IMG/VR virus record: IMGVR_UViG_2698536651_000005
Span: 1 to 29,368 of that record
Strand: one strand, 5' to 3'
Length of the DNA stretch: 29,368 nucleotides
DNA from: a virus
Lineage: Duplodnaviria; Heunggongvirae; Uroviricota; Caudoviricetes
Every line of letters starts with the position of its first letter. Within the stretch, counting starts at the first letter, position 1. A program made the position numbers and the translations under genes. Positions 14,748 through 29,368 of this stretch are shown here, piece after piece. The notes under the pieces are model-generated. The model did no database searches, was not told the origin of the DNA, and saw only the letters and a program-made list of their open reading frames with translations.

Positions 14748-14767
14748 TCTGGTTAATAAAGGATATG

Positions 14768-14826: not shown

Positions 14827-14927
14827 GCATTAGAGCCCTGCTTCTTACTATCTAAACTTTCTGTTATATATTACCCTTTATCTTGGGGGTGTTTTTACGC
14901 CCCATTTTTTATTAAAAAATAATCGTA

Positions 14928-15311
14928 TTAATTAAGCTTAGTAACATCAATATCCATCTCTAAGCAAATGTCTAATGCCATTAACATACCTTCGATTATT
15001 CCCTCTGCTTTCTGTAACCTTTTCCCGATATACCCATCAGAGCAATTATGCTTCCGCGCCAGCATCATAAACGTCATCCCACCAACATAATAATCCACCA
15101 GCAAATCATGTAAGCCATTGTTGCTCTTTTTCAGACAGGCCATACATCCACAAATGATCATCGCGTCATCGTCACAGCATTGCGGACGAGATCTTACTTT
15201 TGAAGGAATTAATCCCTTAAAACCGGCGGCAACGGACGACCAGGTCACATCTTCATGATTATTAGCCGCCCACGCTCCCCAACGCTCAAGAACCATCTGA
15301 ATATCACGCAT
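14928..15311 (-). CDS. late-gene antitermination protein Q (phage 82 / DLP12 QuuD-like)
   Basis: 127 aa beginning [24 protein letters not shown], Cys-rich centre ([15 protein letters not shown]); recalled as the 82-type Q family; directly after replication genes. Confidence 0.7.
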
Positions 15312-15553
15312 CAGCGCAGTACCTCCTGCACCAGTTTTTCAAACTTTCCAACTTTGGTTTCCAGCTCTGCCACACAATCCACCAGCTCATCCACTGCTTT
15401 TTGTGCGCGGTGTTTCGCCTGCATCAGTTCCCTGAGCGCTGGCACCATATCCTTACGAATGGCATCTTTTGTTACGCCTGTCTTTTCCAGTTGTTCCGCC
15501 TGTCGTAACATTTCCTGTGCCTGTTTACGTAATTGTTCAGGCGTAAAAGTCAT
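15311..15553 (-). CDS. hypothetical coiled-coil protein
   Basis: ATG at 15553 ([24 protein letters not shown]...); stop overlaps Q start; charged helical composition. Confidence 0.45.
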
Positions 15554-15564
15554 GGTCTGGTTGT

Positions 15565-17840: not shown

Positions 17841-17850
17841 CGCTGTCACC

Positions 17851-18843
17851 TCAGAATGTTAAGTTGTCACTGGATTTACCGAATTCGTCAGACATGGCAC
17901 CAAGACCAGACAGGATATCTATCTGTCGCTGTCGCCCACCTCCGGGAGCGGCTGGCTGTTGCCAGAAATCTTCGAAGTGACGATCGGGTCCAAAAAACGT
18001 CGCGGTCTGCTTCACGAATTGTGTGCCGGTATTTCCTGTGGCACGTACCCAGGCGGCATAACGCCTCACGCCATCAAGCATGGTTTCGGGTGTCACACCT
18101 TCCCTGATTCGGGCTTTCCAGGCTTTGAAGGCTGCCGACTTGGAATTACCACCAGCACGTTTGGGGTATTCCTGCCAGGCCTGTTCAAATTCCGGTGAAT
18201 ATTCCTGTCGGGCAGAACGCGCTGGTGCAGACGCGTCAGCGGATGCGCCAATAGTGTTTTTAGTCTCCGTTGTAATCTCTGTAGTAATCTCTGTATTTGT
18301 ATCAACATTCGGCGTATCCCCTGTTCCGTTATGACGTTGGGGGGTGTTCCGTTTTAACGTAATAGCTGTGTCGCTGACTGTGTTATTGCTGTTGCTTTCT
18401 GACGAAACAGAAGAAGGTGTGGTGATGGCAGCAATTGCCTGTGGGTTGATCCCGACAAACAAAATATTGCTGCATTTCACCCCGTCTAGCATTTCCACCG
18501 TGCGTAAATCCAGAGTAATAAACCCGGCATCGCGAAGACGCTTCAGCGCATCTGCGGTTTCCCTTTTCCCAAAACCAAACTGCTCAGCAAACGCCTGATA
18601 GCTTCTTTGCAGCTTGTCACCCTGAAAACGCTTGCGATATCCCAGTAAAGCCCCGGTATGCTCATCCCGGACTTCTGTCGGGCGGTACCAATAAACGATC
18701 TCTGAGAGCAGGGCGATAGCGGTCGCATCCGGACGACCACTGGGTAGCCGAATATGTTTCCACCAGTTCGCTGGTGTGACATTGCCGGAAATATTAATTT
18801 GACCAATAGCTATAACTTCCGGTGTGGGGGCGTAACGACTCAT
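17851..18843 (-). CDS. replication initiation protein (lambda O-like / replisome organiser)
   Basis: 330 aa, AAGGAGG RBS; first gene of the helicase-loader/helicase operon; central Thr/Ser-rich linker with TEITTEITTE repeats. Confidence 0.6.
   Translation of the reverse strand: MSRYAPTPEVIAIGQINISGNVTPANWWKHIRLPSGRPDATAIALLSEIVYWYRPTEVRDEHTGALLGYRKRFQGDKLQRSYQAFAEQFGFGKRETADALKRLRDAGFITLDLRTVEMLDGVKCSNILFVGINPQAIAAITTPSSVSSESNSNNTVSDTAITLKRNTPQRHNGTGDTPNVDTNTEITTEITTETKNTIGASADASAPARSARQEYSPEFEQAWQEYPKRAGGNSKSAAFKAWKARIREGVTPETMLDGVRRYAAWVRATGNTGTQFVKQTATFFGPDRHFEDFWQQPAAPGGGRQRQIDILSGLGAMSDEFGKSSDNLTF
18272..18295. repeat. exact tandem 12-bp repeat (GTAATCTCTGTA x2) inside the O-like gene
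   Basis: read directly from sequence; encodes TEITTEIT on the reverse strand; candidate origin iterons. Confidence 0.5.
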
Positions 18844-19139
18844 ACAGCCTCCTTACGCGGCATAACAATGGTGTAACCCCGGGCAGGCTGGAACCGGGCT
18901 TTTGCATCAATAGTGAGCGTTGCAATTTTTCGGATACGCAGATACCCCGCCCTTTCCAGGGCCAGGGTTTCTCTGAACATTGCCTGTTTTGAACAGCAAC
19001 AAAAATCGGCAAGGACCTGGTGATCAATAACCCTCTCACCTTCACCGTCTGAAGAACCCGACATCAAAACACGCAACATAATCAGGCGCTGAATCGGATT
19101 ATCGAAAACACTTCCGCATACAAACTGAAAACAGTTCAC
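18840..19139 (-). CDS. hypothetical protein (99 aa, possible HTH)
   Basis: GTG start at 19139 with GGGAGGTG RBS, overlapping upstream stop; translationally coupled to O-like gene (ATGA). Confidence 0.4.
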   Translation of the reverse strand: MNCFQFVCGSVFDNPIQRLIMLRVLMSGSSDGEGERVIDHQVLADFCCCSKQAMFRETLALERAGYLRIRKIATLTIDAKARFQPARGYTIVMPRKEAV

Positions 19140-19360
19140 ACGGCACCTCCCAGGCGTTTAAACATTTTTCCGGACTGAAACACCGCCAGTGGGTAGCTAA
19201 TGGTGTAGTTACGCCCCAGTAATTCACACACAACTTTCTGGTTTTCGGTGCTGACCAGACAAACCCGCAGAACGTGACCGTTGCTGGTGGCGAACCACTG
19301 CCCCACACGGGGGCAACGGTTGTATCGGTGATACAGGGAATTAACGACGCGGCGAATCAT
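19136..19360 (-). CDS. hypothetical protein (74 aa)
   Basis: ATG at 19360 with GGGAGGTG RBS; ATGA overlap with upstream gene. Confidence 0.4.
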   Translation of the reverse strand: MIRRVVNSLYHRYNRCPRVGQWFATSNGHVLRVCLVSTENQKVVCELLGRNYTISYPLAVFQSGKMFKRLGGAV

Positions 19361-20022
19361 GGGCGCACCTCCCATTGATTACGACGGAAAGCGGTGTGAC
19401 TGAGACTGGTTTCAGTTTCATGGAATGCTTCAATGCAGCTCTCGTAGTACCGCATTGTGCGCAGACTTAACCCAAGCTGAAGCATCATCAGGCCATCAAG
19501 GGTGATGTAATAACCACGCAGGGAGTCACCATAGATGTGATAAGTACCCGGTATGAAATTGCGGGTAAAAAACTCGCGTGAGCAGTTCAGATACTCGATT
19601 TTGTCGACGATGTTCTGGTGCATGCGCTTGAAATGGCAGGCTACATGCAAAGAGAAAATAACGGTCTTACCGTTAATAATCTCAATTTTGAGGAATGGGT
19701 GGGTAGTGGTGGTAGTCATGGTGACAGCCCCTATGTTGAATTCAAAGAACTCACCACCAAGGCTTTCCACGACCATATAGGTGGTGAGACGTACAGGGGT
19801 GGAAATACCGGTCAACATAGAACCCGGCCCAACCGAAGTTGGCCCTGCACGCCCCACCATAATTTGGGCGTAGCAATGCTCATGACACGAAAAAACCGCA
19901 TGAGCGCGGTTGTGCTCTATATTGAATTTCGGGTTTCCACGCCCGACACCCGCTTTATAAGGTGCTGGAACAGTGTAACGTCCCGAAATTGCAGAATCAA
20001 TATATTGTGCAAACATAACCAT
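19357..20022 (-). CDS. hypothetical protein (221 aa)
   Basis: 3' portion of a 509-aa reverse-strand ORF; ATG at 20022 chosen so it does not overlap the forward-strand TA genes; no SD, start uncertain; no recognised motifs. Confidence 0.35.
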   Translation of the reverse strand: MVMFAQYIDSAISGRYTVPAPYKAGVGRGNPKFNIEHNRAHAVFSCHEHCYAQIMVGRAGPTSVGPGSMLTGISTPVRLTTYMVVESLGGEFFEFNIGAVTMTTTTTHPFLKIEIINGKTVIFSLHVACHFKRMHQNIVDKIEYLNCSREFFTRNFIPGTYHIYGDSLRGYYITLDGLMMLQLGLSLRTMRYYESCIEAFHETETSLSHTAFRRNQWEVRP

Positions 20023-20040
20023 TTTGTTATGTTTTAACTC

Positions 20041-20370
20041 ATGAACTACACTATCGAATACTACAGTGAAGAGGTCAGGCTGGAGGTCGACCAGCTTCCA
20101 TTGAGTATGCGTGCCCGATACCAGCATCTTGTTGAACGCATGAAGGTATACGGCAGCAATCTCGGAGAACCTCATACCAGTGCTTTCGGTAACGGGCTTT
20201 TCGAGCTTCGGATTAAAGGTAGTGATGGCATCGCACGCATCTTTTACTGCACCCTGGCAGGAAAACGCATCATCATGCTGCATAGTTTCATCAAGAAGAC
20301 CCAGAAAACCCCACCAGCCGAACGCCAAAAAGCTGAAACCAGAATGAAGGAGGTAAAGCATGACTGGTAA
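20041..20370 (+). CDS. type II toxin, RelE/ParE superfamily (HigB-like, phage Gp49-like)
   Basis: 109 aa, ...GIARIFYCTLAGKRIIMLHSFIKKTQKTP... typical of Gp49/HigB-type toxins; 11-nt overlap with downstream HTH antitoxin gene. Confidence 0.7.
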   Translation: MNYTIEYYSEEVRLEVDQLPLSMRARYQHLVERMKVYGSNLGEPHTSAFGNGLFELRIKGSDGIARIFYCTLAGKRIIMLHSFIKKTQKTPPAERQKAETRMKEVKHDW

Positions 20371-20668
20371 ACGTAATCCGCCAACCATTACACATGATGA
20401 AATGGCTGATAAATGGATGAAGGATCCAGCTTTTAAAGCAGAATACGACGCCATCGCCGACGAATTTGCGCTGCTTGATGAAATGCTGGCAGCACGTAAA
20501 GAGGCTGGTTTAACCCAGGCTGACGTCGCTGAACGCATGGGAACCAAAGCTACTGTCATCAGCAGAATGGAAAGTAATCTGGCGTCAGGTGTCAGTGGAC
20601 CATCATTTTCCACACTGAAAAAATTTGCCCGCGCAACAGGAAAAAAACTCCAGATCCGCTTCGTGTAA
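20360..20668 (+). CDS. HTH (XRE-type) antitoxin, HigA-like
   Basis: AAGGAGGT RBS; HTH LTQADVAERMGTKATVISRMES; toxin-first gene order as in HigBA. Confidence 0.75.
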   Translation: MTGKRNPPTITHDEMADKWMKDPAFKAEYDAIADEFALLDEMLAARKEAGLTQADVAERMGTKATVISRMESNLASGVSGPSFSTLKKFARATGKKLQIRFV

Positions 20669-20689
20669 GTTTCCACCATTGCACCGTCA

Positions 20690-20863
20690 TTCTGGCGGTG
20701 CTTCGCACTCAACAAAATCACGACGAAATAACCACAACGGACTGAAACATTCATGCGGATAACCATCACGCAGGTAAATGACCCGCTGTGTTTCAGACTC
20801 CCAGCGTATAACGTGGACGCGACGCCCTCTGCCATCGCGGAACCAGCGATTGAGTACTTGCAT
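20690..20863 (-). CDS. possible small protein (57 aa)
   Basis: ORF below the track size cut-off, directly downstream of Rha gene; AGGT-type weak RBS. Confidence 0.2.
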
Positions 20864-20882
20864 GTGTTACCTGTGAGCATAA

Positions 20883-21593
20883 TCACACCTGCCAGCCCAG
20901 CGCCTGAAACAGGCCCATTTTCGGGTGATACCAGCGAGTACCTCGTGGTTCTGCTTCACTCATCATGCGATAAAAAGCAAACATGAAGGGTTCTACTGCA
21001 ACAATCGCGCGACGAGACAATAATCCGTCCGGCGTCATAAATTCATGGGTGTCGGTAGGGATCTGATATGCGTTCACCAGATTGCGGCATTTCGCATCTG
21101 ACATACCTGTTTTCGCCACCAGCTGACGGTATCCTGCATAACCATCGCGTATGGTGCCTCTTTTGATTTGTTCGACAGTTTCGGCAACGTGGCTAACTTT
21201 TTCTTCCATCTTGTCGAGGCGTTTTTGCTGACGAACTGCTTCAAGAGCCATCGCGGCAACCATTTCGATTTCGCTCATTGGCTTACGGATCTGTTCTTCC
21301 AGTTCACGCCAACGATCTACCAGGCGGGCAGTGAATTCCGGGCAAAGTTGTGCGACGACAATGATGCTGTCGCGTTTGCCTTGTTCGCCTTCGAAAATAT
21401 ATGCGTTTGTGAATTTGTTTTGGCTAAATGATTGTTCGTTCTCAACTTTTTGCATTGCAGGAAGTTGAATCACCCCGCGTTTTGCCAGACGCTCTATTGA
21501 TATTCTGACATTGCCGTGTTGACTTCCAACCAGCTCTGCGATTTCAACGCTGGTCATGGATACTTTGTCGTTAAAAATTGCGGTGTTCATCAT
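20883..21593 (-). CDS. phage regulatory protein, Rha family
   Basis: N-terminal region (SMTSVEIAELVGSQHGNVRISIERL) matches the Rha-type domain as recalled; GAGGAG RBS; ATGA coupling with upstream gene. Confidence 0.7.
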   Translation of the reverse strand: MMNTAIFNDKVSMTSVEIAELVGSQHGNVRISIERLAKRGVIQLPAMQKVENEQSFSQNKFTNAYIFEGEQGKRDSIIVVAQLCPEFTARLVDRWRELEEQIRKPMSEIEMVAAMALEAVRQQKRLDKMEEKVSHVAETVEQIKRGTIRDGYAGYRQLVAKTGMSDAKCRNLVNAYQIPTDTHEFMTPDGLLSRRAIVAVEPFMFAFYRMMSEAEPRGTRWYHPKMGLFQALGWQV

Positions 21594-21901
21594 TCAATCT
21601 CCTCAGGATGTTTCTCAAACCAGGCGTCAAGGGCGCGCTCGCTGGCCTCTCCTTCTTCAGGAGAAAGCTGCTCAATACTTATAAAACGGATGGATAAAAC
21701 CGAAGGATTGGCGTTACGTATTGCCATCGCACCATTCACAGCTGCGGAACAGGGGCATTTGGCCTTTCCGATAATTGTCTCGGTATAAGTGCGGGCGTAC
21801 TCTGAAACCACGTACGTTCTTCTGTACCACTGTTCGACCGGAATTTGTCCAACAGGATCTGAAGGGTTGACTAATTTTTGAGTGCTGCTAATGTTAAGCA
21901 T
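21590..21901 (-). CDS. hypothetical protein (103 aa)
   Basis: ATG at 21901 with AAAGGA RBS; coupled to Rha gene. Confidence 0.45.
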   Translation of the reverse strand: MLNISSTQKLVNPSDPVGQIPVEQWYRRTYVVSEYARTYTETIIGKAKCPCSAAVNGAMAIRNANPSVLSIRFISIEQLSPEEGEASERALDAWFEKHPEEIE

Positions 21902-21976
21902 GATCAATGTCCTTTAGTCAGATGATTGAGGCCTTTTCCAGTCTGGTGATTAATGCCCTCCGGTTGGCGGTCAGGA

Positions 21977-22297
21977 TCAGTGATTAATCGGGCGTTTATC
22001 ATGGAACAGCTCCTTGAAGGTTGATTCCAAAGGTAAGTCAGGACAGGCCGGGCTGGCCCACCTTAATCCGGCCCGGCTTTTTCTTTTCCTTTCGCTCAGT
22101 AATATTTGTCTGACCAAGTGCCCATTGCCGCGCACGAAACAAGCAATCATTAAACATCGCTCCTTTGCGGCTGGCCTGCGAGCTACGGCGGTAGTAATCC
22201 AGTCCCCGGCATGCCCCCCCCTGGCAACAATTTCAGGGAAGCCCTCCGCCACCAGCTTTTCCGTTATGTGTTTGCAGATAAATTCTTCTGGAGTCAT
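21977..22297 (-). CDS. hypothetical protein (106 aa)
   Basis: ATG at 22297 (MTPEEFICKHITEKLVAEGFPEIVA...) with AAGAGG RBS; contains a C7 homopolymer tract at about 22215-22221. Confidence 0.4.
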   Translation of the reverse strand: MTPEEFICKHITEKLVAEGFPEIVARGGHAGDWITTAVARRPAAKERCLMIACFVRGNGHLVRQILLSERKRKSRAGLRWASPACPDLPLESTFKELFHDKRPINH

Positions 22298-22323
22298 GGT
22301 TAGCCTCTTCAATTTGCCTGTCT

Positions 22324-22352
22324 TTTAACCACTTCAGGCTCGGTGGTATACT
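22324..22352 (+). promoter_or_regulatory. candidate sigma70 promoter with extended -10 (TGgTATACT)
   Basis: -35-like TTTAAC/TTAACC, 17-bp spacer, TGGTATACT at 22344-22352; 34 nt upstream of ATG 22386. Confidence 0.35.
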
Positions 22353-22385
22353 GGAGTTCTCACACAACCAGTAAGGAAATTACCT

Positions 22386-22613
22386 ATGACTGATACAACT
22401 AAATTCAGCGTTGAAACCAAGCTAGACGGCCTTGAGGCATTACTTGGTTTATTGCTGTCGTCCCTTCCCATCCAAGAGCGAATAAAGCTCGCAGCATCCG
22501 GAATGGAGTTAATTAAAAACCTGAAAAGTCAGCCGCAACAGCAGAGGGAGCGAGGACAGGATATGTGTGAATACATCGCTGCCGTTCTGGATAACTCCAT
22601 CAACCAGGATTAA
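22386..22613 (+). CDS. hypothetical protein (75 aa), opposite orientation to early operon
   Basis: own promoter-like element, AAGGA RBS; no recognised motifs. Confidence 0.4.
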   Translation: MTDTTKFSVETKLDGLEALLGLLLSSLPIQERIKLAASGMELIKNLKSQPQQQRERGQDMCEYIAAVLDNSINQD

Positions 22614-22728
22614 CCGAAAAACCCAAAGCTAAGGCTGTTTTTTCAGCAACAGTCCTTGCCTCCTGAATCTCTTCGTCGGTAAGGGCTGATATGGCCTCAA
22701 GAATGCATTCGATTCGTTCTTCGTTCAT
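22600..22728 (-). CDS. possible small protein (42 aa) downstream of cro-like gene
   Basis: GGAGGTAAGGAAGT immediately upstream of ATG 22728; below track size cut-off; converges on and overlaps the 75-aa forward gene by 14 nt. Confidence 0.3.
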   Translation of the reverse strand: MNEERIECILEAISALTDEEIQEARTVAEKTALALGFSVNPG

Positions 22729-22734
22729 ACTTCC

Positions 22735-23007
22735 TTACCTCCCCTCCCCCGTGTGCGCTAAGCTTGGATTTGATGTTTTGCGTAACGAATCAGGAATTCC
22801 ATCTTCAGGGTGAGGGTAAAGATCTGGCCTTAAGCCATGAGGCGTAACCTTCCATGCAACCACCTCACATACCCGTAAAACGAAACGAGCAGGAATTGTG
22901 CTTTTTGAAAACCACTGATTCACCGCTTGCGGTGTCACACCAAGATTTCGCGCTATGGCATTTTGCGCAATTAATGCACGAAGTTCGTCGTAATCATTTC
23001 CTTTCAT
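22735..23007 (-). CDS. Cro-like HTH regulator (YdaS-like)
   Basis: HTH NLGVTPQAVNQWF; divergent from CI repressor gene across a 133-bp intergenic region; GGTGA RBS. Confidence 0.65.
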   Translation of the reverse strand: MKGNDYDELRALIAQNAIARNLGVTPQAVNQWFSKSTIPARFVLRVCEVVAWKVTPHGLRPDLYPHPEDGIPDSLRKTSNPSLAHTGEGR

Positions 23008-23061
23008 AACAAATCACCAAGATAAACTTAATGAATCAAGAATACATCAATTTTAAATTAA

Positions 23062-23096
23062 CATGCAAGTTGCAAAAGGATCGAATACACTAAAAT
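23062..23096 (+). promoter_or_regulatory. candidate cI promoter (TTGCAA-17-TAAAAT) overlapping palindrome TGCAAgTTGCA
   Basis: hexamers at 23068-23073 and 23091-23096; perfect 5+1+5 palindrome at 23062-23072 overlaps the -35; within cro/cI divergent intergenic region. Confidence 0.4.
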
Positions 23097-23140
23097 CAAG
23101 TAAAGATTTATCCTTGTAAAGAAACCCACAGGACCTGGTC

Positions 23141-23830
23141 ATGAAGAACGTCAAAAACACGGAAAATCGTATAGCCGCGATGCTGAAAGCAAAAGGATGG
23201 ACTCAAGCTCAACTGGCCCGTAAGTTAGGTGTGAGTGCGCAATCAGTGCAGTACTGGACAACAGGAAAGACATTTCCACGGAGTGATAAGCTTGCGCAGT
23301 TATCAGAGATTAGCGGTTATCCACAATCCTGGTTCTTAGGTGAAGACCCCTCACCGACCTTCTCCTCGCCAGAGAAACACCAGACAAGAACAGATAGCGT
23401 CGTGTTTAATGTCCTTGATGTTGAGTTCAGTTGCGGTGATGGAACTCATGTCCGTGGTGACTTGATAGATGTAGTGCGCTCAATAGAACTTGATCCTGAA
23501 TATGCCCGACGTCTTGTTGGAAATCGGGCATTCAAAAATATAGAAATAGGTAACGCCAGAGGAGACAGTATGGCTCCCACAATCTCACCTGGCGACCTTC
23601 TTTTTCTCGATAAGACAGTAACTTATTTTGATGGAGATGGCATTTATGCATTTTGTTTTGATGGAGAATGCTACGTGAAAAGACTTCAAAAAATTGGAAG
23701 CAAAATCATGGTGTTATCTGATAACCCCAATTATCAACCATGGAGCATCGAAAAAGAGGGTTTAGCTCTGCTTTATATCCAGTCTAAAGTGATCTCATCT
23801 GTACCATTCAATATAAACAGATTTGGTTAG
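23141..23830 (+). CDS. cI: CI-type prophage repressor (N-terminal HTH, C-terminal S24 LexA-like peptidase)
   Basis: HTH WTQAQLARKLGVSAQSVQYW; S24 motifs GDSM (Ser nucleophile) and YVKRL (Lys). Confidence 0.9.
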   Translation: MKNVKNTENRIAAMLKAKGWTQAQLARKLGVSAQSVQYWTTGKTFPRSDKLAQLSEISGYPQSWFLGEDPSPTFSSPEKHQTRTDSVVFNVLDVEFSCGDGTHVRGDLIDVVRSIELDPEYARRLVGNRAFKNIEIGNARGDSMAPTISPGDLLFLDKTVTYFDGDGIYAFCFDGECYVKRLQKIGSKIMVLSDNPNYQPWSIEKEGLALLYIQSKVISSVPFNINRFG

Positions 23831-23841
23831 TCTTTGATTTT

Positions 23842-23864
23842 AACGGGCTTTGCCCGTTTTTTCT
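23842..23864 (+). terminator. rho-independent terminator after cI
   Basis: AACGGGC-ttt-GCCCGTT followed by TTTTCT, 12 nt after cI stop. Confidence 0.6.
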
Positions 23865-23892
23865 GCCTAAAATACACGATATCAATTTTTTC

Positions 23893-23921
23893 TTGACAGC
23901 CTATTTCTCAAAGCATAATAT
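23893..23921 (+). promoter_or_regulatory. near-consensus sigma70 promoter (TTGACA-17-TAATAT), pL-like position
   Basis: hexamers at 23893-23898 and 23916-23921; flanked by ATCAAT motifs also present in the cro/cI intergenic region. Confidence 0.5.
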
Positions 23922-23950
23922 CGCACCATCAATTATAACTTGATTAAGTT

Positions 23951-23963
23951 CAATTTAAAATTG
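23951..23963. promoter_or_regulatory. perfect 13-bp palindrome CAATTTaAAATTG (candidate operator)
   Basis: near-identical CAATTTtAAATTa at 23047-23059 in the cro/cI intergenic region. Confidence 0.35.
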
Positions 23964-23974
23964 TTGGCGGATAT

Positions 23975-24436
23975 ATGAAGACACTAAACGCAACTCCAGA
24001 AACAACCAATTTTAGCAACTGCGACTGTGTTACGCTTAAGAGCTTAGAATTTGATTCCTTTGCATTAAATATTGCGAATTTGCTAAGTGCTGTACGCACA
24101 TTCCATCTTCTGGATTGTGCTCGCTCAAAGGAACTGGGCATTGAGGTAATGGAATTTATCCATGAATATGCCCTATCTGCGGCTTCTCCTGCACAACAAA
24201 AACAATCCTTCCCCAAAAGCTGGCTGGTTAACCTTCGCACCCAACGCGAAGCCTGCGGCTTAACAACAGCCGAACTCGCCAGGCTGCTCGATCTCGATGA
24301 AGACATCATAATCCAGTGGGAGAGCGGAGAGTATGAACCAACTATCAGTATGCTTATCCCGCTGGCAAATGTTCTTGGTTGCGACCCGATGTGGCTGTTA
24401 ACCGGTAAACCAACAGCGGGAGATACTTGCGCATGA
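23975..24436 (+). CDS. hypothetical protein with C-terminal XRE-type HTH (153 aa)
   Basis: C-terminal HTH LTTAELARLLDLDEDIIIQWESGEYEPTISMLIPLANVLG; N-terminal ~70-aa domain paralogous to C-terminus of the next gene. Confidence 0.6.
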   Translation: MKTLNATPETTNFSNCDCVTLKSLEFDSFALNIANLLSAVRTFHLLDCARSKELGIEVMEFIHEYALSAASPAQQKQSFPKSWLVNLRTQREACGLTTAELARLLDLDEDIIIQWESGEYEPTISMLIPLANVLGCDPMWLLTGKPTAGDTCA

Positions 24437-24798
24437 AAAAGTTCGAAAACATAACTGTTCTCCATGTTGATAACTTTGATTATACAAACCAGGAACTTCT
24501 CCCGGAGGTTGTAAAGGCAATAGATGTAGCCGATATAGTGATTAGAGGAAAGAGAATTGTCAAAAACAGGCTCGCATGCACTTCAGGAGCAATGACAGAA
24601 ACAACCTCACAACAAGATGATTATGAAGGCATTTGTCTGGAGCCTGATTCATTTGCGGTAAATGTTTATCATTTATTGCATGCAACACAGGTATTACATA
24701 TGTCCAGTAATCACGAAACAAAAGTACTTGGCAGCGAAATTCTGAATTTTGCATGTGAATATGCAAAAGCTGCTGCCGAAAAAGAATTAGCGCAATAA
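24433..24798 (+). CDS. hypothetical protein (121 aa) sharing a domain with the upstream HTH protein
   Basis: ATGA overlap with upstream gene; residues ~70-115 (LEPDSFAVNVYHLL...LGSEILNFACEYAKAAAE) about 45-50% identical to upstream protein residues ~24-70. Confidence 0.55.
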   Translation: MKKFENITVLHVDNFDYTNQELLPEVVKAIDVADIVIRGKRIVKNRLACTSGAMTETTSQQDDYEGICLEPDSFAVNVYHLLHATQVLHMSSNHETKVLGSEILNFACEYAKAAAEKELAQ

Positions 24799-24994
24799 CA
24801 ATAAATATTCCCTGAATGTTTATTACGGTTTTATCGCCGGGGATTGTTGCAACATTTATTCGCAGGAGATTATGTTATGACCTTCCTGAAACATAAGGCA
24901 TCGTATAAAACTGCCTGCCTCATTGCACAACATGGAGATTCTTATCTTCATATAGCCAACCTGTATTTGCGCAAAGCATATGGGAGATAAATAA

Positions 24995-25183
24995 ATGAAA
25001 GAAAAACAACAGAACATAACACATAAAAAAGTAAGAGTGTTGCTAACTATTGAAAATGGTGAAGTAATTTACTCAAAACATCTGTTGGATAATGAATTCG
25101 TTGGTTGCATGGATACATTTCTGTGGATGGCAAAAAGAGCTGGCTACACGATTATTCCACCAGCAAAGGAGCAAACATTATGA
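24995..25183 (+). CDS. hypothetical protein (62 aa)
   Basis: GGGAGA RBS; ATGA coupling to downstream 193-aa gene. Confidence 0.45.
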   Translation: MKEKQQNITHKKVRVLLTIENGEVIYSKHLLDNEFVGCMDTFLWMAKRAGYTIIPPAKEQTL

Positions 25184-25761
25184 ATCATTCAGAGTTCCGA
25201 TCAGAAGTAACGCCACATGGCATAAAAATTGGTAATAAAACCATTGATTATATTGAGGCCGTACAGCGGCTTAATGATGGCGAATTCGATAATCCATACT
25301 GGCACGGTTTAAGAATCATGCAATGTCTTGCCGAAGCTGATGATGCCGGATTGCTGGGAAGATTTTCAGTCGATCTGAAGGTTGCTCAGTGGCGCTGGCT
25401 GTATGTGATGAAGTTTATCAGTGAAGAGGAAAACAAGAACGGCACCATTGATATCCCTAACGATAACGGAACCACAGATCACGCAGTTATTTATAAGGGA
25501 AAGCATGGTTGTATAAGTATATACCCGGGGCCACTTCGCATTGCCCTGCAAAACCATGTTGAATGGGGATTTATTGAAAAATATGGCGAAGCTGAAGGCA
25601 TGGGGAGAGTTCTGTTTCTCTATCAAAAAATGCTCATCGCAGATCCTGATAATGGTTTCATTCTCTCTGCTATGGGGCGCGAAGGGCTTGAACTCCTTCT
25701 GGATGAAATGATTAACGACCTGAATACTCATGGTATGCCAGAAGCGCCAGTGACACATTAA
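25180..25761 (+). CDS. hypothetical protein (193 aa)
   Basis: AAGGAG RBS 8 nt upstream of ATG 25180 (track ORF extends upstream to 25105); no recognised motifs. Confidence 0.55.
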   Translation: MNHSEFRSEVTPHGIKIGNKTIDYIEAVQRLNDGEFDNPYWHGLRIMQCLAEADDAGLLGRFSVDLKVAQWRWLYVMKFISEEENKNGTIDIPNDNGTTDHAVIYKGKHGCISIYPGPLRIALQNHVEWGFIEKYGEAEGMGRVLFLYQKMLIADPDNGFILSAMGREGLELLLDEMINDLNTHGMPEAPVTH

Positions 25762-25780
25762 ATATTAAGAAGACTATAAT
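25750..25780 (+). promoter_or_regulatory. candidate sigma70 promoter (gTGACAc-18-TATAAT)
   Basis: perfect -10 TATAAT at 25775-25780; upstream of small membrane ORFs and SPFH gene. Confidence 0.4.
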
Positions 25781-25937
25781 TCTTCCATTTTTTACTAACC
25801 GTTTATATGAAAAGCAACCGTGAATTAAACAGAGTAAAACTGATTTTAATCCTTGCCACAGTGCTTACACTAACAGAAATCATTATTCTCTTTATTGCGC
25901 TGTCAGTCGGTTAAAAATATCGGGATACCACAGACCA

Positions 25938-26126
25938 ATGAGACTGTATTTCACAATAGTAATTTTACTGGCAATTATCGCATGCATTTACGGATTACTT
26001 GTTCCGTTCCTTATATCCATGAAGGATACGATAGCAGTTATTTCTGGCTTTGCACTGGCGTTTCTGACCCCGCCCTGCATTTATGCCATTTACAAGGGGC
26101 TTTCTTTCACTAAGGATAAAAGATGA
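25938..26126 (+). CDS. small membrane protein (62 aa, 2 TM), partner of SPFH gene
   Basis: two hydrophobic segments; stop overlaps SPFH start (ATGA); no clear SD. Confidence 0.4.
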   Translation: MRLYFTIVILLAIIACIYGLLVPFLISMKDTIAVISGFALAFLTPPCIYAIYKGLSFTKDKR

Positions 26127-26950
26127 AAAAAATTATTTTTGCTTTAGCCATTGTTCTGCCGACAATTGGCCTTGTCGGTTGCGATCGCGTTGAACCAGGT
26201 AATGTTGGCATCAAGGTAAATAAACTGGGCGACGACAAAGGCGTCGGTGAGGTGGTCGGTGTTGGTCGCTACTGGACTGGCTGGAATACTGAAGTTTATA
26301 TCTTCCCCACCTTCAAACAAATGAAGACCTACGATGAACCGTTCAGTTTCCAGATGAGTGACGGTACAACCATCGGCTATCACATCGGTGTGGCCTACAA
26401 AGTTGATCCATCCAAAGTTACCACGGTGTTTCAGACCTACCGCAAAGGCGTGGATGACATTACCGACACTGACCTGCGCCAGAAAATTGCCGACGCACTC
26501 AATCGGCTGGCCAGCAAAATGACCACTGACAAATTTATCGACGGCGGCAAGTCTGAACTACTGGATGCCGCACTTAAAGACATTCAGGAAGAGATGACAC
26601 CCATCGGCATTCAGGTAATGAGCCTCTCTTATGTAGGTAAACCGGAATACCCTCCAACCGTTATCGACAGCATTAACGCCAAAGTCACGGCAAACCAGAA
26701 AACCCTGCAGCGCGAACAGGAAGTCAAGCAACGTGAAGCGGAGGCCAACATGCTACGTGCGGAAGCTGCCGGACAGGCTGATGCCATTCGAACAAAAGCC
26801 CAGGCAGAAGCCGATGCTATTCGTTTACGCGGTGAAGCTCTGCGCCAGAACCCAGGCGTCATGGAGCTGGAAGCCATCAACAAGTGGAACGGTACACTGC
26901 CGCAATACATGACCAGTGGTGCCAATACACCATTTATCCAGATTAAATAA
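26123..26950 (+). CDS. SPFH/band-7 (prohibitin/HflC-like) domain lipoprotein
   Basis: lipoprotein signal MKKIIFALAIVLPTIGLVGC; SPFH-like core (VEPGNVGIKVN...); Ala/Gln/Glu-rich coiled-coil C-terminal region; AAGGA RBS. Confidence 0.75.
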   Translation: MKKIIFALAIVLPTIGLVGCDRVEPGNVGIKVNKLGDDKGVGEVVGVGRYWTGWNTEVYIFPTFKQMKTYDEPFSFQMSDGTTIGYHIGVAYKVDPSKVTTVFQTYRKGVDDITDTDLRQKIADALNRLASKMTTDKFIDGGKSELLDAALKDIQEEMTPIGIQVMSLSYVGKPEYPPTVIDSINAKVTANQKTLQREQEVKQREAEANMLRAEAAGQADAIRTKAQAEADAIRLRGEALRQNPGVMELEAINKWNGTLPQYMTSGANTPFIQIK

Positions 26951-26990
26951 CTTATATGCCCGGCAGGCCGCCGGGCTAAGGGAAATGAAG

Positions 26991-27362
26991 ATGAACACCC
27001 AGAATACTCAACCGCAAATAATGAACTATGACCCGAATCTGACGTCATGCGGACGCATGGCAAAACAAACCGTTCGATTAACTTTCGGACTATGGGAATA
27101 CCGCGAAACATTCGAAGTTACTGTCGGCGGCAATCTGACCGGACTGGATGTTATCAGTTGCGCTATTGAAAGCCTGTACGCAACGCTGCCTTATGAAGAA
27201 GTCGAGGATGAGCGCACAGGGGGAACAGATATCATGGCCACCATTAATATTGGCGAACTGATATGTCAGGATGAAGACCTGTCCGGAGAACTCTGGCTTG
27301 CCGGGATGCTTATCTCAGCAGAAATTATCAGTATTGAACCCGCTACAAACATACGGCTCTGA
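26991..27362 (+). CDS. hypothetical protein (123 aa)
   Basis: ATG 26991 with AAGGGA RBS (track ORF starts at 26916 inside SPFH gene); no recognised motifs. Confidence 0.45.
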   Translation: MNTQNTQPQIMNYDPNLTSCGRMAKQTVRLTFGLWEYRETFEVTVGGNLTGLDVISCAIESLYATLPYEEVEDERTGGTDIMATINIGELICQDEDLSGELWLAGMLISAEIISIEPATNIRL

Positions 27363-27393
27363 AGTTCTCACTATTCAGAGAGCAGGAGAAAAA

Positions 27394-27636
27394 ATGTTTG
27401 CTTTGATTAATCAGGGACAACTGTATACCGACAGTGCCGGTTACCCGGTAAAAATTATTCGCTGCATAAATAACACCGTGTTGTACAGAAGAATGGATGG
27501 GCGAACACAATCGGTAAAAATGAACGATTTTAATGAATCGTTTGAACGGATCGATCACCAGGAATACCGACAAATTCTGGCAGAAACAGAGCAGGAAGCT
27601 CATCTGAAAAAATTACGAGCCATGAAAAGGAAGTAG
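27394..27636 (+). CDS. hypothetical protein (80 aa)
   Basis: AGGAGA RBS 6 nt before ATG 27394. Confidence 0.45.
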   Translation: MFALINQGQLYTDSAGYPVKIIRCINNTVLYRRMDGRTQSVKMNDFNESFERIDHQEYRQILAETEQEAHLKKLRAMKRK

Positions 27637-27639
27637 CGA

Positions 27640-27786
27640 ATGAATAAAGCGTTTGAGCTATGGGTACGCCAGCGTTACGGCAATCGTTATGACCTGACGC
27701 GAGATGTTGACGGTTTCTACTGCCGTGAAGTTGTGAAACGAATGTTTGAGGTGTGGTGCCACTGCCGTGGGCTGAAAGTTTTATGA
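27640..27786 (+). CDS. possible small protein (48 aa)
   Basis: AAGGAAG RBS, starts 4 nt after upstream stop; below track size cut-off. Confidence 0.3.
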   Translation: MNKAFELWVRQRYGNRYDLTRDVDGFYCREVVKRMFEVWCHCRGLKVL

Positions 27787-27793
27787 GGTTGAC

Positions 27794-28048
27794 ATGCAGA
27801 CAATCATCTATCAAATAACACCAAGTAAATGGTGTACAGAAAGCACCCTCATTGCTTCGACAGGGCTAAAACCAGGCACCATTGAGCGAGCCAGGAAAAA
27901 ATCATGGCTACAGGGGAAAGAATATCGACATTACGCTGTCGATGGAATTCCGAAGAGCAACAGTGAATGCGTATACAACATAGAGGAAATTATGCGCTGG
28001 ATCGAAAATCAGAAACAACCAGGTGTTAAAAATGCAAGTTCCGGTTAA
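27794..28048 (+). CDS. excisionase-like DNA-binding protein
   Basis: 84 aa immediately upstream of integrase; GAGG RBS; assignment mainly by position and size. Confidence 0.45.
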   Translation: MQTIIYQITPSKWCTESTLIASTGLKPGTIERARKKSWLQGKEYRHYAVDGIPKSNSECVYNIEEIMRWIENQKQPGVKNASSG

Positions 28049-28081: not shown

Positions 28082-29368
28082 ATGAGTAATACATCATACC
28101 CAACAGGCGTTGAAAATCATGGCGGATCACTCCGCATATGGTTTTACTATAACGGCAAACGTGTCAGAGAAAACCTCGGTGTTCCTGACACCGCCAAAAA
28201 CCGGAAAATCGCAGGTGACCTCCGCACTTCCGTTTGTTTTGCAATCAGAATGGGGAGTTTCGACTATGCAGCACAGTTCCCTGAGTCCCCTAACCTGAAA
28301 CACTTTGGTCTGGGGAAAAGAGAGATAACCATTAAAGCACTTTCGGAAAGATGGCTTGAACTGAAGAAAATAGAGATTTGTGCAAATGCACTTAACCGTT
28401 ACCAGTCAGTAATTAAAAACATGTTGCCAATGTTAGGTGAAAAAAGACTGGTTTCATCTGTAACAAAAGAGGATTTGCTTTTCGTAAGGCGAGATCTGTT
28501 GACCGGTTATCAAAAGCTTTCTAACGGAAAAATTTCTTCCATAAAAGGACGCTCAGTGGTCACAGTAAACTACTATATGACAACCATAGCTGGAATGTTT
28601 CAATTTGCAACAGATAATGGTTATACATCAGGAAATCCATTTAACGGTCTGACACCATTAAAAAAGTCCAAGATAGAACCAGATCCCCTCACCCGTGACG
28701 AATTTATTCGTTTTATTGAGGCTTGCCGTCATCAACAAACAAAAAACCTGTGGATTATCGCTGTATACACGGGTATTCGTCACGGGGAGCTGGTATCACT
28801 GGCCTGGGAAGATATAGACCTTAAAGCGAGGACTATAACCATCCGCCGGAATTATACAAAACTAGGCGAATTCACTCCACCAAAAACTGATGCTGGTACC
28901 GGAAGAACGATTCATCTGGTTCAACCAGCTATTGATGCTCTTAAAAGCCAAGCGGAAATGACCATGCTTGGAAAACAGCATTCTGTAGAGGTAAAGCAGA
29001 GGGAATATGGGAGAAGTACTGTGCATAAATGCACTTTTGTTTTTAGTCCTCAGGTAATAAAACAGCGGCAGTTTTCCGGACCGCACTATAAGGTTGACTC
29101 CATCAGGGAGTCATGGACAAGTATCTTAAAACGCGCAGGTCTGAGACACAGAAAATCGTATCAATCCAGGCATACCTATGCATGCTGGTCACTTGCCGCA
29201 GGAGCTAATCCTAGTTTTATCGCAAGCCAGATGGGCCACACAAACGCACAAATGGTATTCAATGTTTACGGAGCATGGATGAAAGACAACAATCACGAAC
29301 AGATAGAACTTCTTAACAGAAGACTATCTGAAAGTGTCCCATGCATGCCCCATAAGAAAGCGGGGTAA
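28082..29368 (+). CDS. int: tyrosine-type site-specific integrase
   Basis: 428 aa; catalytic region with TGIRHGEL (Arg), SRHTYACW (His-x-x-Arg) and VYGAW (Tyr)-like segments; GGGAGG RBS; stop coincides with window end. Confidence 0.9.
   Translation: MSNTSYPTGVENHGGSLRIWFYYNGKRVRENLGVPDTAKNRKIAGDLRTSVCFAIRMGSFDYAAQFPESPNLKHFGLGKREITIKALSERWLELKKIEICANALNRYQSVIKNMLPMLGEKRLVSSVTKEDLLFVRRDLLTGYQKLSNGKISSIKGRSVVTVNYYMTTIAGMFQFATDNGYTSGNPFNGLTPLKKSKIEPDPLTRDEFIRFIEACRHQQTKNLWIIAVYTGIRHGELVSLAWEDIDLKARTITIRRNYTKLGEFTPPKTDAGTGRTIHLVQPAIDALKSQAEMTMLGKQHSVEVKQREYGRSTVHKCTFVFSPQVIKQRQFSGPHYKVDSIRESWTSILKRAGLRHRKSYQSRHTYACWSLAAGANPSFIASQMGHTNAQMVFNVYGAWMKDNNHEQIELLNRRLSESVPCMPHKKAG

What the first reader, a model, noticed from the sequence alone, without database searches (positions are those of the whole stretch)
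23975..27790. About 3.8 kb between cI and xis/int lacks recognisable N, recombination or kil genes
In lambda-like phages this operon carries N, cIII, kil, gam/bet/exo and similar. Here all eleven or so ORFs are unknown or unusual (HTH-domain pair, coupled pair, SPFH operon, three small genes). That makes the whole segment an accessory island and raises the question of how early antitermination and recombination are provided.
Basis: inference. Interest (0 to 1): 0.5.

Follow-up and report, generated by a model that had tools for sequence, protein, structure and literature searches.

The report
Ordinary N-less, Rec-less phage early-left operon
The segment is the normal early-left operon of a phiP27-type E. 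coli prophage. It does lack lambda's N, recombination and kil genes, but such phages are already described: they need no N here and carry many Chi sites that should let them use the host's RecBCD for recombination.

Summary
Between cI (23141-23830) and xis/int (27794-29368) lie 11 ORFs plus two small conserved ones, all on the + strand. None matches N, cIII, Kil, Gam, Bet/Exo, Erf, RecT or Sak in Pfam, PHROGs, NCBIfam or PADLOC. AlphaFold models of the two largest unknowns find no structural relative.

The segment is about 96% identical to the L03-L10 region of phage phiP27, and its architecture recurs in Stx1/Stx2 phages. Parts of it match DNA in 1046 of 5426 complete E. coli genomes. Most of it is a conserved backbone. 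Only the SPFH cassette, and to a lesser degree DUF5406, behaves as a swappable accessory.

It reads as one operon. A promoter lies just after the cI terminator, overlapped by three conserved operators. I found no intrinsic terminator, no nut site and no arginine-rich protein downstream, so N is not needed on this side. Q is present for late genes.

On recombination, the window has 11 Chi sites against 0.8 expected. Nine are in the active orientation and ten lie between cro and the lysis genes. This is the published "no Rec module, high Chi" class of lambdoid phages, which is thought to rely on host RecBCD.

Verdict: already known and ordinary. The individual gene functions remain unknown.

The parts
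23141..23830 (+). cI-type repressor (HTH plus an S24 self-cleaving domain), the upstream neighbour of the operon
   Evidence: 229-aa ORF. Annotated as an XRE-family regulator or phage repressor CI in relatives. 94-99% identical in seven relatives. The GDSM and VKRL motifs of the Ser-Lys dyad are visible in the sequence.
23842..23866 (+). Intrinsic terminator of the cI transcript
   Evidence: 7-bp G+C-rich stem followed by a T run. Free energy -10.8 kcal/mol, z -3.3.
23881..23965 (+). pL-like promoter (TTGACA-17-TAATAT, 23893-23921) with three operator-like 17-mers of the form ATCAA-N7-TTGAT, at 23881-23897, 23928-23944 and 23949-23965
   Evidence: It ties for the best score (10 of 12) among promoter-like sites in 22600-29368. 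The 17-mers cluster here and in the cI/cro intergenic region at 23016-23111. The hexamers and operator half-sites are invariant in eight same-immunity relatives, although the flanks and operator centres diverge.
23975..24436 (+). g1: XRE-type HTH regulator with a roughly 60-aa N-terminal 'X' domain; first gene of the operon (phiP27 L10 family)
   Evidence: HTH_3 E 3e-11 at aa 87-141. phrog_4836 E 6e-76. Relatives carry the X domain plus two HTH domains. dN/dS about 0.2.
24433..24798 (+). g2: 121-aa partner (phiP27 L08). It has no HTH; its C-terminal region matches the X domain of g1. Its start overlaps the g1 stop as ATGA.
   Evidence: phrog_5451 E 2.5e-82. BLASTP against g1 gives E 1e-8.
24877..24990 (+). 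s37: conserved 37-aa ORF with an AGGAGA Shine-Dalgarno sequence
   Evidence: Sequence. 70-100% aa identity in all nine lambdoid relatives. dN/dS 0.05-0.11 in diverged pairs. Annotated in PhiR49_2 and in the Stx1a phage.
24995..25183 (+). g3: 62-aa protein (phiP27 L07), translationally coupled to g4. It contains one Chi site on the - strand (25157-25164).
   Evidence: phrog_340 E 3e-24. ATGA overlap with g4. Chi site.
25180..25761 (+). g4: 193-aa protein (phiP27 L06) with an orphan fold
25807..25914 (+). s35: unannotated 35-aa ORF for a hydrophobic peptide, ahead of the SPFH cassette
   Evidence: Sequence. Intact and 86-100% identical in six relatives. Too few substitutions to settle whether it is under selection.
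25938..26126 (+). g5: 62-aa membrane protein with two predicted transmembrane helices, the partner of the SPFH protein
   Evidence: phrog_1130 E 2.5e-23. GRAVY +1.25. A homologous small gene overlaps the SPFH gene start in phage P88, in phage-plasmid-like contigs and in Klebsiella prophages.
26123..26950 (+). g6: SPFH/Band 7 lipoprotein. The lipobox is LVGC with Asp at +2, which predicts inner-membrane retention and a periplasmic orientation.
   Evidence: Band_7 E 6e-31. phrog_200 E 1e-114. The nearest solved structure and NCBIfam models are HflK and HflC, far below their cut-offs. G+C is about 0.49 against 0.39-0.42 further upstream in the operon. 93% aa identity to P88 gp12.
26958..26976 (+). 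G+C-rich hairpin after the SPFH gene, with no U tract
   Evidence: Free energy -17.1 kcal/mol, z -2.1. Not a canonical intrinsic terminator.
26991..27362 (+). g7: DUF5406 protein, acidic (pI 4.1)
27394..27636 (+). g8: DUF4222 protein, the domain family of the prophage regulator RgdR
   Evidence: PF13973 E 8e-17. RgdR is described as containing DUF4222 (PMC10877973). The pairwise match to RgdR is only remote (E 0.11).
27640..27786 (+). g9: conserved 48-aa basic protein
   Evidence: phrog_3871 E 2e-35. Present in all nine lambdoid relatives. dN/dS 0.07-0.34.
27794..28048 (+). Excisionase (DUF1233 type)
   Evidence: PF06806 E 7e-31. phrog_539.
28082..29368 (+). Tyrosine integrase. In the closest relative the prophage lies next to mlrA (yehV).
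   Evidence: 428-aa ORF. 100% aa identity to the integrase next to mlrA in E. coli UTAK-5.
14928..15311 (-). Q-type late antiterminator (outside the finding; relevant to the antitermination question)
   Evidence: phrog_79 E 6e-49. PGAP calls the homologue in a relative an 'antiterminator Q family protein'.
10656..25164 (.). Span holding 11 Chi octamers (GCTGGTGG). Nine are on the - strand, which is the active orientation on the lambda map. Ten lie between cro and the lysis genes.
   Evidence: 11 found against 0.82 expected; no shuffle of 100 reached 11. Distribution by segment.

Best explanation
The segment is the complete, intact early-left (pL) operon of a phiP27-type lambdoid prophage of E. 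coli. It is not an island that displaced lambda's genes.

Transcription (inferred from sequence and conservation). Transcription starts at a sigma-70 promoter, TTGACA-17-TAATAT at 23893-23921, which lies just after the cI terminator. Three 17-bp ATCAA-N7-TTGAT operators overlap the promoter, and the same motif recurs between cI and cro. The promoter is therefore probably repressed by cI in the lysogen and fires on induction or infection.

Read-through (shown by sequence). From there, 13 closely spaced same-strand ORFs run into xis and int. Three junctions are 4-bp start/stop overlaps. There is no intrinsic terminator, no boxA/boxB nut site and no arginine-rich N-like protein. This side of the phage therefore needs no N-type antitermination. 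Late genes have a Q-type antiterminator at 14928-15311.

Recombination. The phage carries no Rec module. [quoted passage not shown] Host RecBCD and RecA are then proposed to make the concatemers needed for packaging. The Chi excess, orientation and position are shown here; the dependence on RecBCD is inferred from the literature.

Gene content.
- A conserved backbone: the XRE regulator g1 and its paralogous partner g2 (possibly a regulator and its modulator), s37, the coupled L07/L06 pair, DUF4222 (the RgdR-type small regulator family) and a 48-aa protein next to xis.
- Exchangeable cassettes: above all a two-gene unit that moves between phages, made of a 62-aa membrane protein and an inner-membrane SPFH lipoprotein facing the periplasm. 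By analogy with HflK/C it probably builds a membrane scaffold early in lytic growth.
For: - Identity with phiP27 and shared gene order in Stx1, Stx2a, Stx2d and non-Stx relatives.
- Matches in 1046 of 5426 complete E. coli genomes.
- Promoter, terminator and operators, with phylogenetic footprinting.
- No terminator on the + strand from 23900 to 28100, by the consensus scan and by my own RNAfold scan.
- No boxA and no arginine-rich motif.
- No Rfam family in the segment apart from one chance-level snoRNA hit.
- No hit to N, Rec, Kil, cIII or defence families.
- g4 and g7 have orphan folds.
- Purifying selection on all ORFs.
- Q is present.
- 11 Chi sites against 0.82 expected; 9 in the active orientation; 10 between cro and the lysis genes; none in the head genes. 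The first 20 kb of phiP27 hold 8 active and 4 inactive sites.
- Literature: 68 of 314 lambdoid phages have no Rec module, and 62 of those have 8 or more Chi sites in the active orientation, often clustered at the right end. The type phage LLS also lacks N (PMC12315714). Bobay et al. 2013 reached the same conclusion (PMC3784561). Eru1 Stx phages lack N, cII and cIII (PMC8044961).
- Two relatives with the same operon architecture produce phage: ASU11 was obtained by mitomycin C induction (record metadata), and phiP27 is described as an inducible Stx2e-converting phage (my own knowledge).
Against: - Every function below operon level is inferred. Eleven products have no assigned biochemical role, so an unrecognised recombination, anti-RecBCD or antitermination protein among g3, g4, g7, g9 and s37 cannot be formally excluded.
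- Rho-dependent terminators cannot be predicted with these tools.
- The promoter and operators are computational only. The operator pattern is not enriched over the whole window (28 matches against 20 expected); only its clustering and conservation support it.
- The early-right operon does contain terminator-like hairpins around the C4/isrK RNA elements. How transcription reaches Q was not resolved.
- The window covers only part of the prophage; the tail region was not seen.
Confidence: 0.8

Rival explanations
1. One reading: the whole 3.8 kb is an accessory (moron) island that replaced the standard early-left genes. On this view the phage depends on something unexplained for antitermination and recombination.
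For: - The SPFH cassette has a different G+C content.
- It is missing from ASU11, PhiR49_2 and the Stx1a phage.
- It occurs in unrelated phage types.
- The middle of the operon varies between relatives: MarR, ParE-like, Ea22 or an IS110 element.
Against: - g1, the X-domain protein, s37, L07, DUF4222 and the 48-aa gene are present in all nine lambdoid relatives, across three cI types and three integrase types. L06 is missing from only one.
- These genes are under purifying selection.
- The dependence is explained by the absence of terminators and by the Chi excess.
Confidence: 0.2
2. One or more orphan proteins are unrecognised analogues of lambda functions. Examples would be the acidic DUF5406 protein acting as a DNA-mimic RecBCD inhibitor, g4 as an annealing protein, or a small protein acting like Kil or cIII.
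For: - g4 and g7 give confident models with no known structural relative.
- g7 has pI 4.1.
- DUF5406 keeps its position next to xis/int in Pseudomonas prophages.
- Zheng et al. state that hidden recombination proteins cannot be strictly excluded in this class.
Against: - A high density of Chi sites in the active orientation argues against a RecBCD inhibitor. In the published surveys, phages with anti-RecBCD genes mostly lack Chi.
- DUF5406 is absent from two relatives that keep the rest of the operon.
- No fold resembles Red-beta/Erf/Rad52, RecT, Sak4 or Gam.
Confidence: 0.1
3. The prophage is a decayed remnant that lost N, red/gam and kil by deletion.
For: Many E. coli prophages are defective. 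The window alone does not show the whole prophage.
Against: - All ORFs are intact and the start/stop overlaps are preserved.
- dN/dS is well below 1.
- The same gene order occurs in ASU11, recovered by mitomycin C induction, and in phiP27.
- The rest of the window carries intact replication, Q, lysis, terminase and portal genes.
Confidence: 0.04
4. The segment is an anti-phage defence or superinfection-exclusion island expressed from the prophage.
For: - Early-left and int-proximal regions of prophages often carry defence genes (general knowledge).
- The SPFH cassette encodes membrane proteins.
- A near-consensus promoter, GTGACA-19-TATAAT, lies at 25750-25780 ahead of the cassette (read by eye).
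Against: - No PADLOC model matches any product, apart from generic HTH hits.
- In P88 the cassette sits inside the early lytic operon with no gap before it.
- The operon promoter carries operator-like sites, which implies repression in the lysogen.
Confidence: 0.06

Closest known systems
Early-left region L03-L10 of Stx2e phage phiP27 (NC_003356 / AJ298298)
   Same: About 96% nucleotide identity over 90% of the segment. Same genes in the same order: L10 (HTH), L08, L07, L06, the L05 SPFH lipoprotein, L04 (DUF5406) and L03 (DUF4222).
   Different: phiP27 has a different cI, a partly different g1 (78% identity over 57% of its length), and a different xis and int (53% and 72% aa identity). The annotation of the reference record misses the small membrane gene, s35 and s37.
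[quoted passage not shown] 2025; also Bobay et al. 2013)
   Same: A lambdoid gene layout with no recombination or anti-RecBCD genes in the early-left operon, many Chi sites in the active orientation concentrated toward the right end, and no N in the prototype.
   Different: The early-left genes of LLS resemble those of ST64B, not phiP27. I could not confirm whether phiP27-type phages were in their panel, because the supplements are not held. Dependence of growth on RecBCD is untested for this phage.
Phage lambda pL operon (N, cIII, kil, gam, bet, exo, xis, int)
   Same: Same position and direction: downstream of cI, on the same strand, ending in xis and int. A repressor-controlled promoter with three operators.
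   Different: No shared gene apart from the xis and int roles. No N or nut, no internal terminators, no Rec module, and many Chi sites where lambda has none (PMC12315714).
Eru-type Stx phages that lack N, cII and cIII (Llarena et al. 2021; Fagerlund et al. 2022)
   Same: E. coli temperate phages with a cI/cro switch and Q but no lambda-type N, cII or cIII. Some types carry Rha-type genes next to cI.
   Different: Those papers classify the replication side of cI, not the early-left operon. This window carries no stx genes, and its Eru type was not determined.
HflK/HflC, the SPFH modulators of the FtsH protease in E. coli
   Same: The SPFH domain followed by an Ala/Glu-rich helical region. The bulk of the protein is predicted to face the periplasm from the inner membrane. 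HflK and HflC are the nearest solved-structure and NCBIfam matches.
   Different: Scores lie far below the family cut-offs (23-25 bits against 134-159). The protein is anchored by a lipid, not a transmembrane helix. Its partner is a 62-aa two-helix protein, not a second SPFH protein or an NfeD. No link to FtsH has been shown.
RgdR (ECs_1581), the DUF4222 prophage regulator of type III secretion in E. coli O157:H7
   Same: g8 matches the DUF4222 model above its threshold. RgdR is reported to contain this domain (PMC10877973).
   Different: The pairwise similarity of g8 to RgdR is marginal (E 0.11). g8 has no RGD tripeptide. The window's other DUF4222 gene (20687-20863) is closer to RgdR (E 5e-11).

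Membership tests
Lambda-type N/nut early antitermination | A small N-like protein with an arginine-rich motif, encoded first after pL | tested here: not met
   No PHROG or Pfam N family hit. The first gene is an acidic HTH protein (pI 4.6). No plausible ORF in the operon has more than four Arg in any 15-aa stretch near its N-terminus; the one exception, with five, is a 40-aa out-of-frame ORF inside g7.
Lambda-type N/nut early antitermination | A nut site (boxA CGCTCTTA plus a boxB hairpin) downstream of the early promoter | tested here: not met
   No boxA-like match with one mismatch or fewer in 23830-24300 on the + strand. One match on the pR side (22480) is at the chance level of 20 per window.
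Lambda-type N/nut early antitermination | Intrinsic terminators inside the operon that must be read through | tested here: not met
   The consensus scan and my own hairpin-plus-T-tract scan find none on the + strand between 23900 and 28100. Rho-dependent sites cannot be tested.
HK022-type put RNA antitermination | A structured two-stem RNA of about 70 nt just downstream of the early promoter | tested here: inconclusive
   Nothing above noise from Rfam in the segment, though I do not know whether Rfam holds a put model. The predicted leader is only about 47 nt and A+T-rich, which makes a put element unlikely.
Phage Rec module (Red Exo/Bet, RecET, Erf, Sak/Sak4, SSB; Gam or Abc2) | At least one protein matching these families by sequence profile | tested here: not met
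   No such family hit for any ORF of the left operon or of the early-right operon. PGAP names in relatives agree.
Phage Rec module (Red Exo/Bet, RecET, Erf, Sak/Sak4, SSB; Gam or Abc2) | A fold resembling these proteins in the unassigned products | tested here: not met
[quoted passage not shown] 2025) | No recognisable Rec module | tested here: met
[quoted passage not shown] 2025) | Eight or more Chi sites in the active (top-strand) orientation and few in the other | tested here: met
   Nine on the strand that reads cro to Q to terminase, and two on the other, in the 29-kb window alone. Expected total 0.82.
[quoted passage not shown] 2025) | [quoted passage not shown] | tested here: met
   10 of 11 lie in 8101-23007 (lysis genes to cro). 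None lies in the 8.1 kb of head and terminase genes.
[quoted passage not shown] 2025) | Growth enhanced by host RecBCD | not testable with these tools
   Needs plating on recB and recC hosts.
phiP27-type early-left operon | Nucleotide identity and conserved gene order with phiP27 L03-L10 | tested here: met
   96.2% identity over 90% of 23831-27793. Protein matrix.
SPFH / Band 7 superfamily | A match to PF01145 above the gathering score | tested here: met
   108.3 bits against a cut-off of 23.6.
HflK / HflC (FtsH modulators) | A score above the NCBIfam equivalog cut-offs | tested here: not met
   25.5 bits against 134.4 for HflC, and 23.4 against 159.4 for HflK. Best PDB match is HflK at E 2e-4 over 127 residues.
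SPFH-NfeD operon | A partner gene encoding an NfeD-domain protein | tested here: not met
   The partner g5 is 62 aa with no Pfam hit. It is homologous only to other 64-67-aa phage partners.
Bacterial lipoprotein | A signal peptide ending in a lipobox [LVI][ASTVI][GAS]C | tested here: met
   MKKIIFALAIVLPTIGLVGC, then DR. The lipobox LVGC has its Cys at residue 20, with Asp at +2 (sequence). Inner-membrane retention is inferred from the +2 rule.
DUF4222 / RgdR-like prophage regulators | A match to PF13973 above the gathering score | tested here: met
   61.1 bits against a cut-off of 27. A regulatory function is not shown for g8.
Known anti-phage defence systems (PADLOC) | Any component model matched by a product of the segment | tested here: not met
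   Only generic HTH hits for g1 and cI. Nothing for the other eight products.

The most novel reading that the evidence does not exclude
The two-gene unit that moves between phages (a 62-aa membrane protein plus an SPFH lipoprotein facing the periplasm from the inner membrane) might be a phage-made counterpart of the HflK/C cage. It would act early in infection to alter FtsH-dependent proteolysis or inner-membrane organisation. In this N-, cII- and cIII-less phage lineage it would then take over part of the lysis-lysogeny tuning that cIII performs in lambda.

A related possibility is that the always-present block g1-g2-s37-L07-L06 is a new early regulatory or host-takeover module built around orphan folds.
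Probability: 0.08. Interest if true: 0.6.

Novelty: already known. Interest (0 to 1): 0.2.

Why it matters
The finding itself changes little. The sequence was published with phage phiP27, and the absence of N and of a Rec module is a documented feature of a large class of lambdoid phages. The window is a clean additional example of the link between a missing Rec module and an excess of Chi sites.

What remains open is the function of about a dozen conserved early genes that parts of over a thousand complete E. coli genomes carry, including many Shiga-toxin phages. These include two orphan-fold proteins and a widespread phage SPFH cassette. They are expressed when Stx prophages are induced, so their roles could bear on toxin-phage biology. 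Nothing here shows that they do.

Tried and rejected
- Profile searches of all ORFs against Pfam, PHROGs, NCBIfam and PADLOC gave no standard early-left or defence function.
- Sequence search of g4, g7, g8 and the SPFH protein against PDB chains returned only weak HflK matches for the SPFH protein.
- A profile search of the g4 family against 1.84 billion representatives found a small family of 129 clusters. Pfam on its longer members showed no informative fusion; the single 1347-aa hit looks like a low-complexity artefact.
- Rfam found nothing real inside the segment.
- Searches for boxA and for an arginine-rich motif were negative.
- The operator pattern is not enriched across the whole window. 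I kept it only because of its clustering and its conservation.
- The phiP27 genome paper (PMC127862) is not held, so what its authors said about L03-L10 could not be checked.
- No paper mentions DUF5406. Nothing links SPFH proteins to superinfection exclusion.
- I considered and rejected a decayed prophage, a defence island and a hidden RecBCD inhibitor. The last is hard to reconcile with the Chi excess.

Full report
**What is there.** The window is part of a lambdoid prophage of E. coli.

- The closest relative of the right-hand 6.4 kb (23000-29368) is a prophage next to mlrA (yehV) in strain UTAK-5, at 97% identity.
- Parts of that stretch match DNA in 1046 of 5426 complete E. coli genomes. 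In 55 genomes one match covers at least 80% of it.
- On the - strand the window carries head, portal, terminase, lysis, Q, DnaB, a DnaC-like loader, an O-like initiator, Rha/Ant and cro genes.
- On the + strand it carries cI (23141-23830) and then the segment in question, which ends in xis (27794-28048) and int (28082-29368).

Profile searches give these results:

| Gene | Result |
|---|---|
| g1 | XRE-type HTH (HTH_3, E 3e-11) |
| g6 | SPFH/Band 7 protein (E 6e-31) |
| g7 | DUF5406 |
| g8 | DUF4222 |
| xis | DUF1233 excisionase |
| g2, g3, g4, g5, g9 | match only PHROG families with no assigned role, or a generic 'membrane protein' label |

- No product matches N, cIII, Kil, Gam, Bet, Exo, Erf, RecT, Sak or SSB families. 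NCBIfam and PADLOC add nothing.
- One correction is needed. Only g1 of the 'HTH pair' has an HTH. g2 shares with g1 a helical domain of about 45-60 aa (E 1e-8). Relatives of g1 carry this domain followed by two HTH domains.

**It is a known module and mostly a conserved backbone.** The segment is 96.2% identical over 90% of its length to the L03-L10 region of Stx2e phage phiP27.

The same gene order occurs in:
- Stx2a and Stx2d phages
- an Stx1a phage
- ASU11, recovered by mitomycin C induction
- PhiR49_2
- other E. coli prophages at mlrA and at another attachment site

That order is cI, HTH regulator, X-domain protein, s37, L07, L06, a variable middle, DUF5406, DUF4222, a protein of about 45 aa, xis, int.

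A presence/absence matrix shows the following:
- g1, an X-domain protein, s37, L07, DUF4222 and the 48-aa gene are present in all nine lambdoid relatives. This holds across three cI types and three integrase types.
- L06 is missing from only one relative.
- All are under purifying selection, with dN/dS 0.05-0.35 in well-diverged pairs.
- The part that comes and goes is the SPFH cassette, and to a lesser extent DUF5406.

The SPFH cassette behaves as a unit that moves between phages:
- Its G+C content is higher than that of the genes upstream in the operon.
- The small membrane gene and the SPFH gene occur as an overlapping pair in the early operon of the P2-like phage P88 (93% aa identity), in contigs of about 110 kb that look like phage-plasmids, and in Klebsiella lambdoid prophages.

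'Accessory island' therefore fits this cassette but not the whole segment.

**How the operon is read.**
- A clean intrinsic terminator follows cI (23842-23866; -10.8 kcal/mol).
- Next comes one of the two best-scoring sigma-70-like promoters of the scanned region, TTGACA-17-TAATAT at 23893-23921.
- Three 17-mers of the form ATCAA-N7-TTGAT overlap its -35 hexamer and its start region. Four more lie between cI and cro.
- In eight relatives with the same repressor, the two hexamers and the operator half-sites are invariant, while the operator centres and the surrounding DNA have diverged. This is the pattern expected of real operators. I infer a cI-repressed pL.
- Downstream, the gaps between genes are 3-78 bp and three junctions are 4-bp start/stop overlaps.
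- The consensus scan and my own hairpin-plus-T-tract scan find no intrinsic terminator on the + strand before int. The strong hairpin after the SPFH gene has no U tract.
- There is no boxA-like sequence after the promoter and no arginine-rich ORF. Rfam finds nothing real in the segment.
- The plain reading is that this operon needs no N. A Q-type antiterminator is present for late genes.
- N-less relatives are documented. Eru1 Stx phages lack N, cII and cIII (PMC8044961), and so does the lambdoid phage LLS (PMC12315714).
- Caveats: Rho-dependent termination cannot be assessed. The early-right operon does contain terminator-like hairpins near the C4/isrK RNA elements, which I did not resolve.

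**How recombination is provided.**
- The window has 11 Chi octamers (GCTGGTGG) against 0.82 expected. No shuffle of 100 reached 11.
- Nine lie on the - strand. This strand reads cro to Q to terminase, so it is the 'top' strand of the standard lambda map and the active orientation.
- Ten lie between cro and the lysis genes, which is the right end of the virion map. None lies in the 8.1 kb of head and terminase genes.
- The first 20 kb of phiP27 show the same bias, with 8 active and 4 inactive sites.
- This is the signature reported by Bobay et al. 2013 (PMC3784561) and by Zheng et al. 2025 (PMC12315714). In the latter, 68 of 314 enterobacterial lambdoid phages have no Rec module. Of these, 62 carry eight or more Chi sites in the active orientation, often clustered at the right end. 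The type phage LLS grows better with RecBCD.
- The window meets every sequence-level criterion of that class. The dependence on RecBCD is inferred, not shown.
- The Chi excess also argues against a hidden RecBCD inhibitor, since phages with such inhibitors mostly lack Chi.

**What the genes may do (inference).**
- *g1 and g2.* g1 is the first gene after pL and is probably a DNA-binding regulator. g2 shares its non-HTH domain and is translationally coupled to it, so it could modulate g1 by pairing through that domain.
- *L07 and L06.* They form a coupled pair. L06 has an orphan fold and belongs to a small family of 129 clusters among 1.84 billion representatives, with no informative fusions.
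- *The SPFH protein.* It has a lipobox (LVGC) with Asp at +2, which predicts an inner-membrane lipoprotein facing the periplasm. Its nearest characterised relatives are HflK and HflC, but far below the family cut-offs. Its partner is not an NfeD protein. It most likely forms a membrane scaffold with the 62-aa protein early in lytic growth. A link to FtsH is only a speculation.
- *g8.* DUF4222 is the domain of RgdR, a prophage regulator of type III secretion (PMC10877973). g8 is only a remote relative of RgdR.
- *DUF5406.* The protein is acidic. It keeps its place next to xis/int even in Pseudomonas prophages. No paper mentions the family.

**Verdict.** The segment is a published, widespread early-left operon of a lambdoid class already known to lack N and a Rec module, and the two questions raised have ordinary answers. 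It is not novel as a feature. What is left is a set of conserved early genes of unknown function.

Noticed in passing
window 10656-25164: Eleven Chi sites (GCTGGTGG) against 0.82 expected. Nine are on the - strand and ten lie between cro and the lysis genes. I found them while asking how recombination is supplied, and they became part of the explanation.
   Followed up: yes
window 19777-19978 (- strand): Strong Rfam matches to C4 antisense RNA (82 bits) and isrK (59 bits), plus a weak a1/b1 target match. This is an RNA switch of the P1 immI / Gifsy IsrK type inside the early-right operon. Terminator-like hairpins lie at 19911-19894 and 19675-19659. It may control read-through toward the replication genes and Q.
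   Followed up: no
window 20041-20668 (+ strand): A RelE/ParE-type toxin gene and an HTH antitoxin gene, overlapping each other. They are inserted against the direction of the early-right operon.
   Followed up: no
window 25807-25914 (+ strand): An unannotated 35-aa ORF for a hydrophobic peptide (MKSNRELNRVKLILILATVLTLTEIIILFIALSVG) just ahead of the SPFH cassette. It is intact in six relatives. It could be a small membrane protein or toxin-like peptide, but there are too few substitutions to judge selection.
   Followed up: partly
window 24877-24990 (+ strand): A conserved 37-aa ORF with a good Shine-Dalgarno sequence. It is present in all nine lambdoid relatives and under strong purifying selection, yet it is missing from most annotations, including RefSeq phiP27.
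   Followed up: partly
window 25750-25780 (+ strand): A near-consensus promoter, GTGACA-19 nt-TATAAT, overlapping the end of g4. It could drive the SPFH cassette independently of pL. The spacer is one base longer than the scan allows, so it was seen by eye only.
   Followed up: no
window 13584-14747 (+ strand): A low-G+C gene for an OmpC-like porin, on the strand opposite to its neighbours, between Q and the DNA methyltransferase gene. It looks like a lysogenic-conversion gene.
   Followed up: no
window 20687-20863 (- strand): A second DUF4222 gene. Its core is 47% identical to the T3SS regulator RgdR of O157:H7 (E 5e-11), much closer than the DUF4222 gene in the left operon.
   Followed up: partly
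L015 3797-4831; L017 4810-5828; L011 3884-4914: The small membrane gene and the SPFH lipoprotein gene travel together. They occur in contigs of about 110 kb that look like phage-plasmids (next to gp32-like, 5'-3' exonuclease and RecA-like genes), in Klebsiella lambdoid prophages, and in the P2-like phage P88. This is a widespread phage cassette with no known function.
   Followed up: partly
L008 6001-7702 (Pseudomonas putida prophage): DUF5406 lies directly upstream of a DUF4224 gene and an integrase gene. This mirrors its place next to xis/int in E. coli and hints at a role tied to that end of the operon.
   Followed up: no
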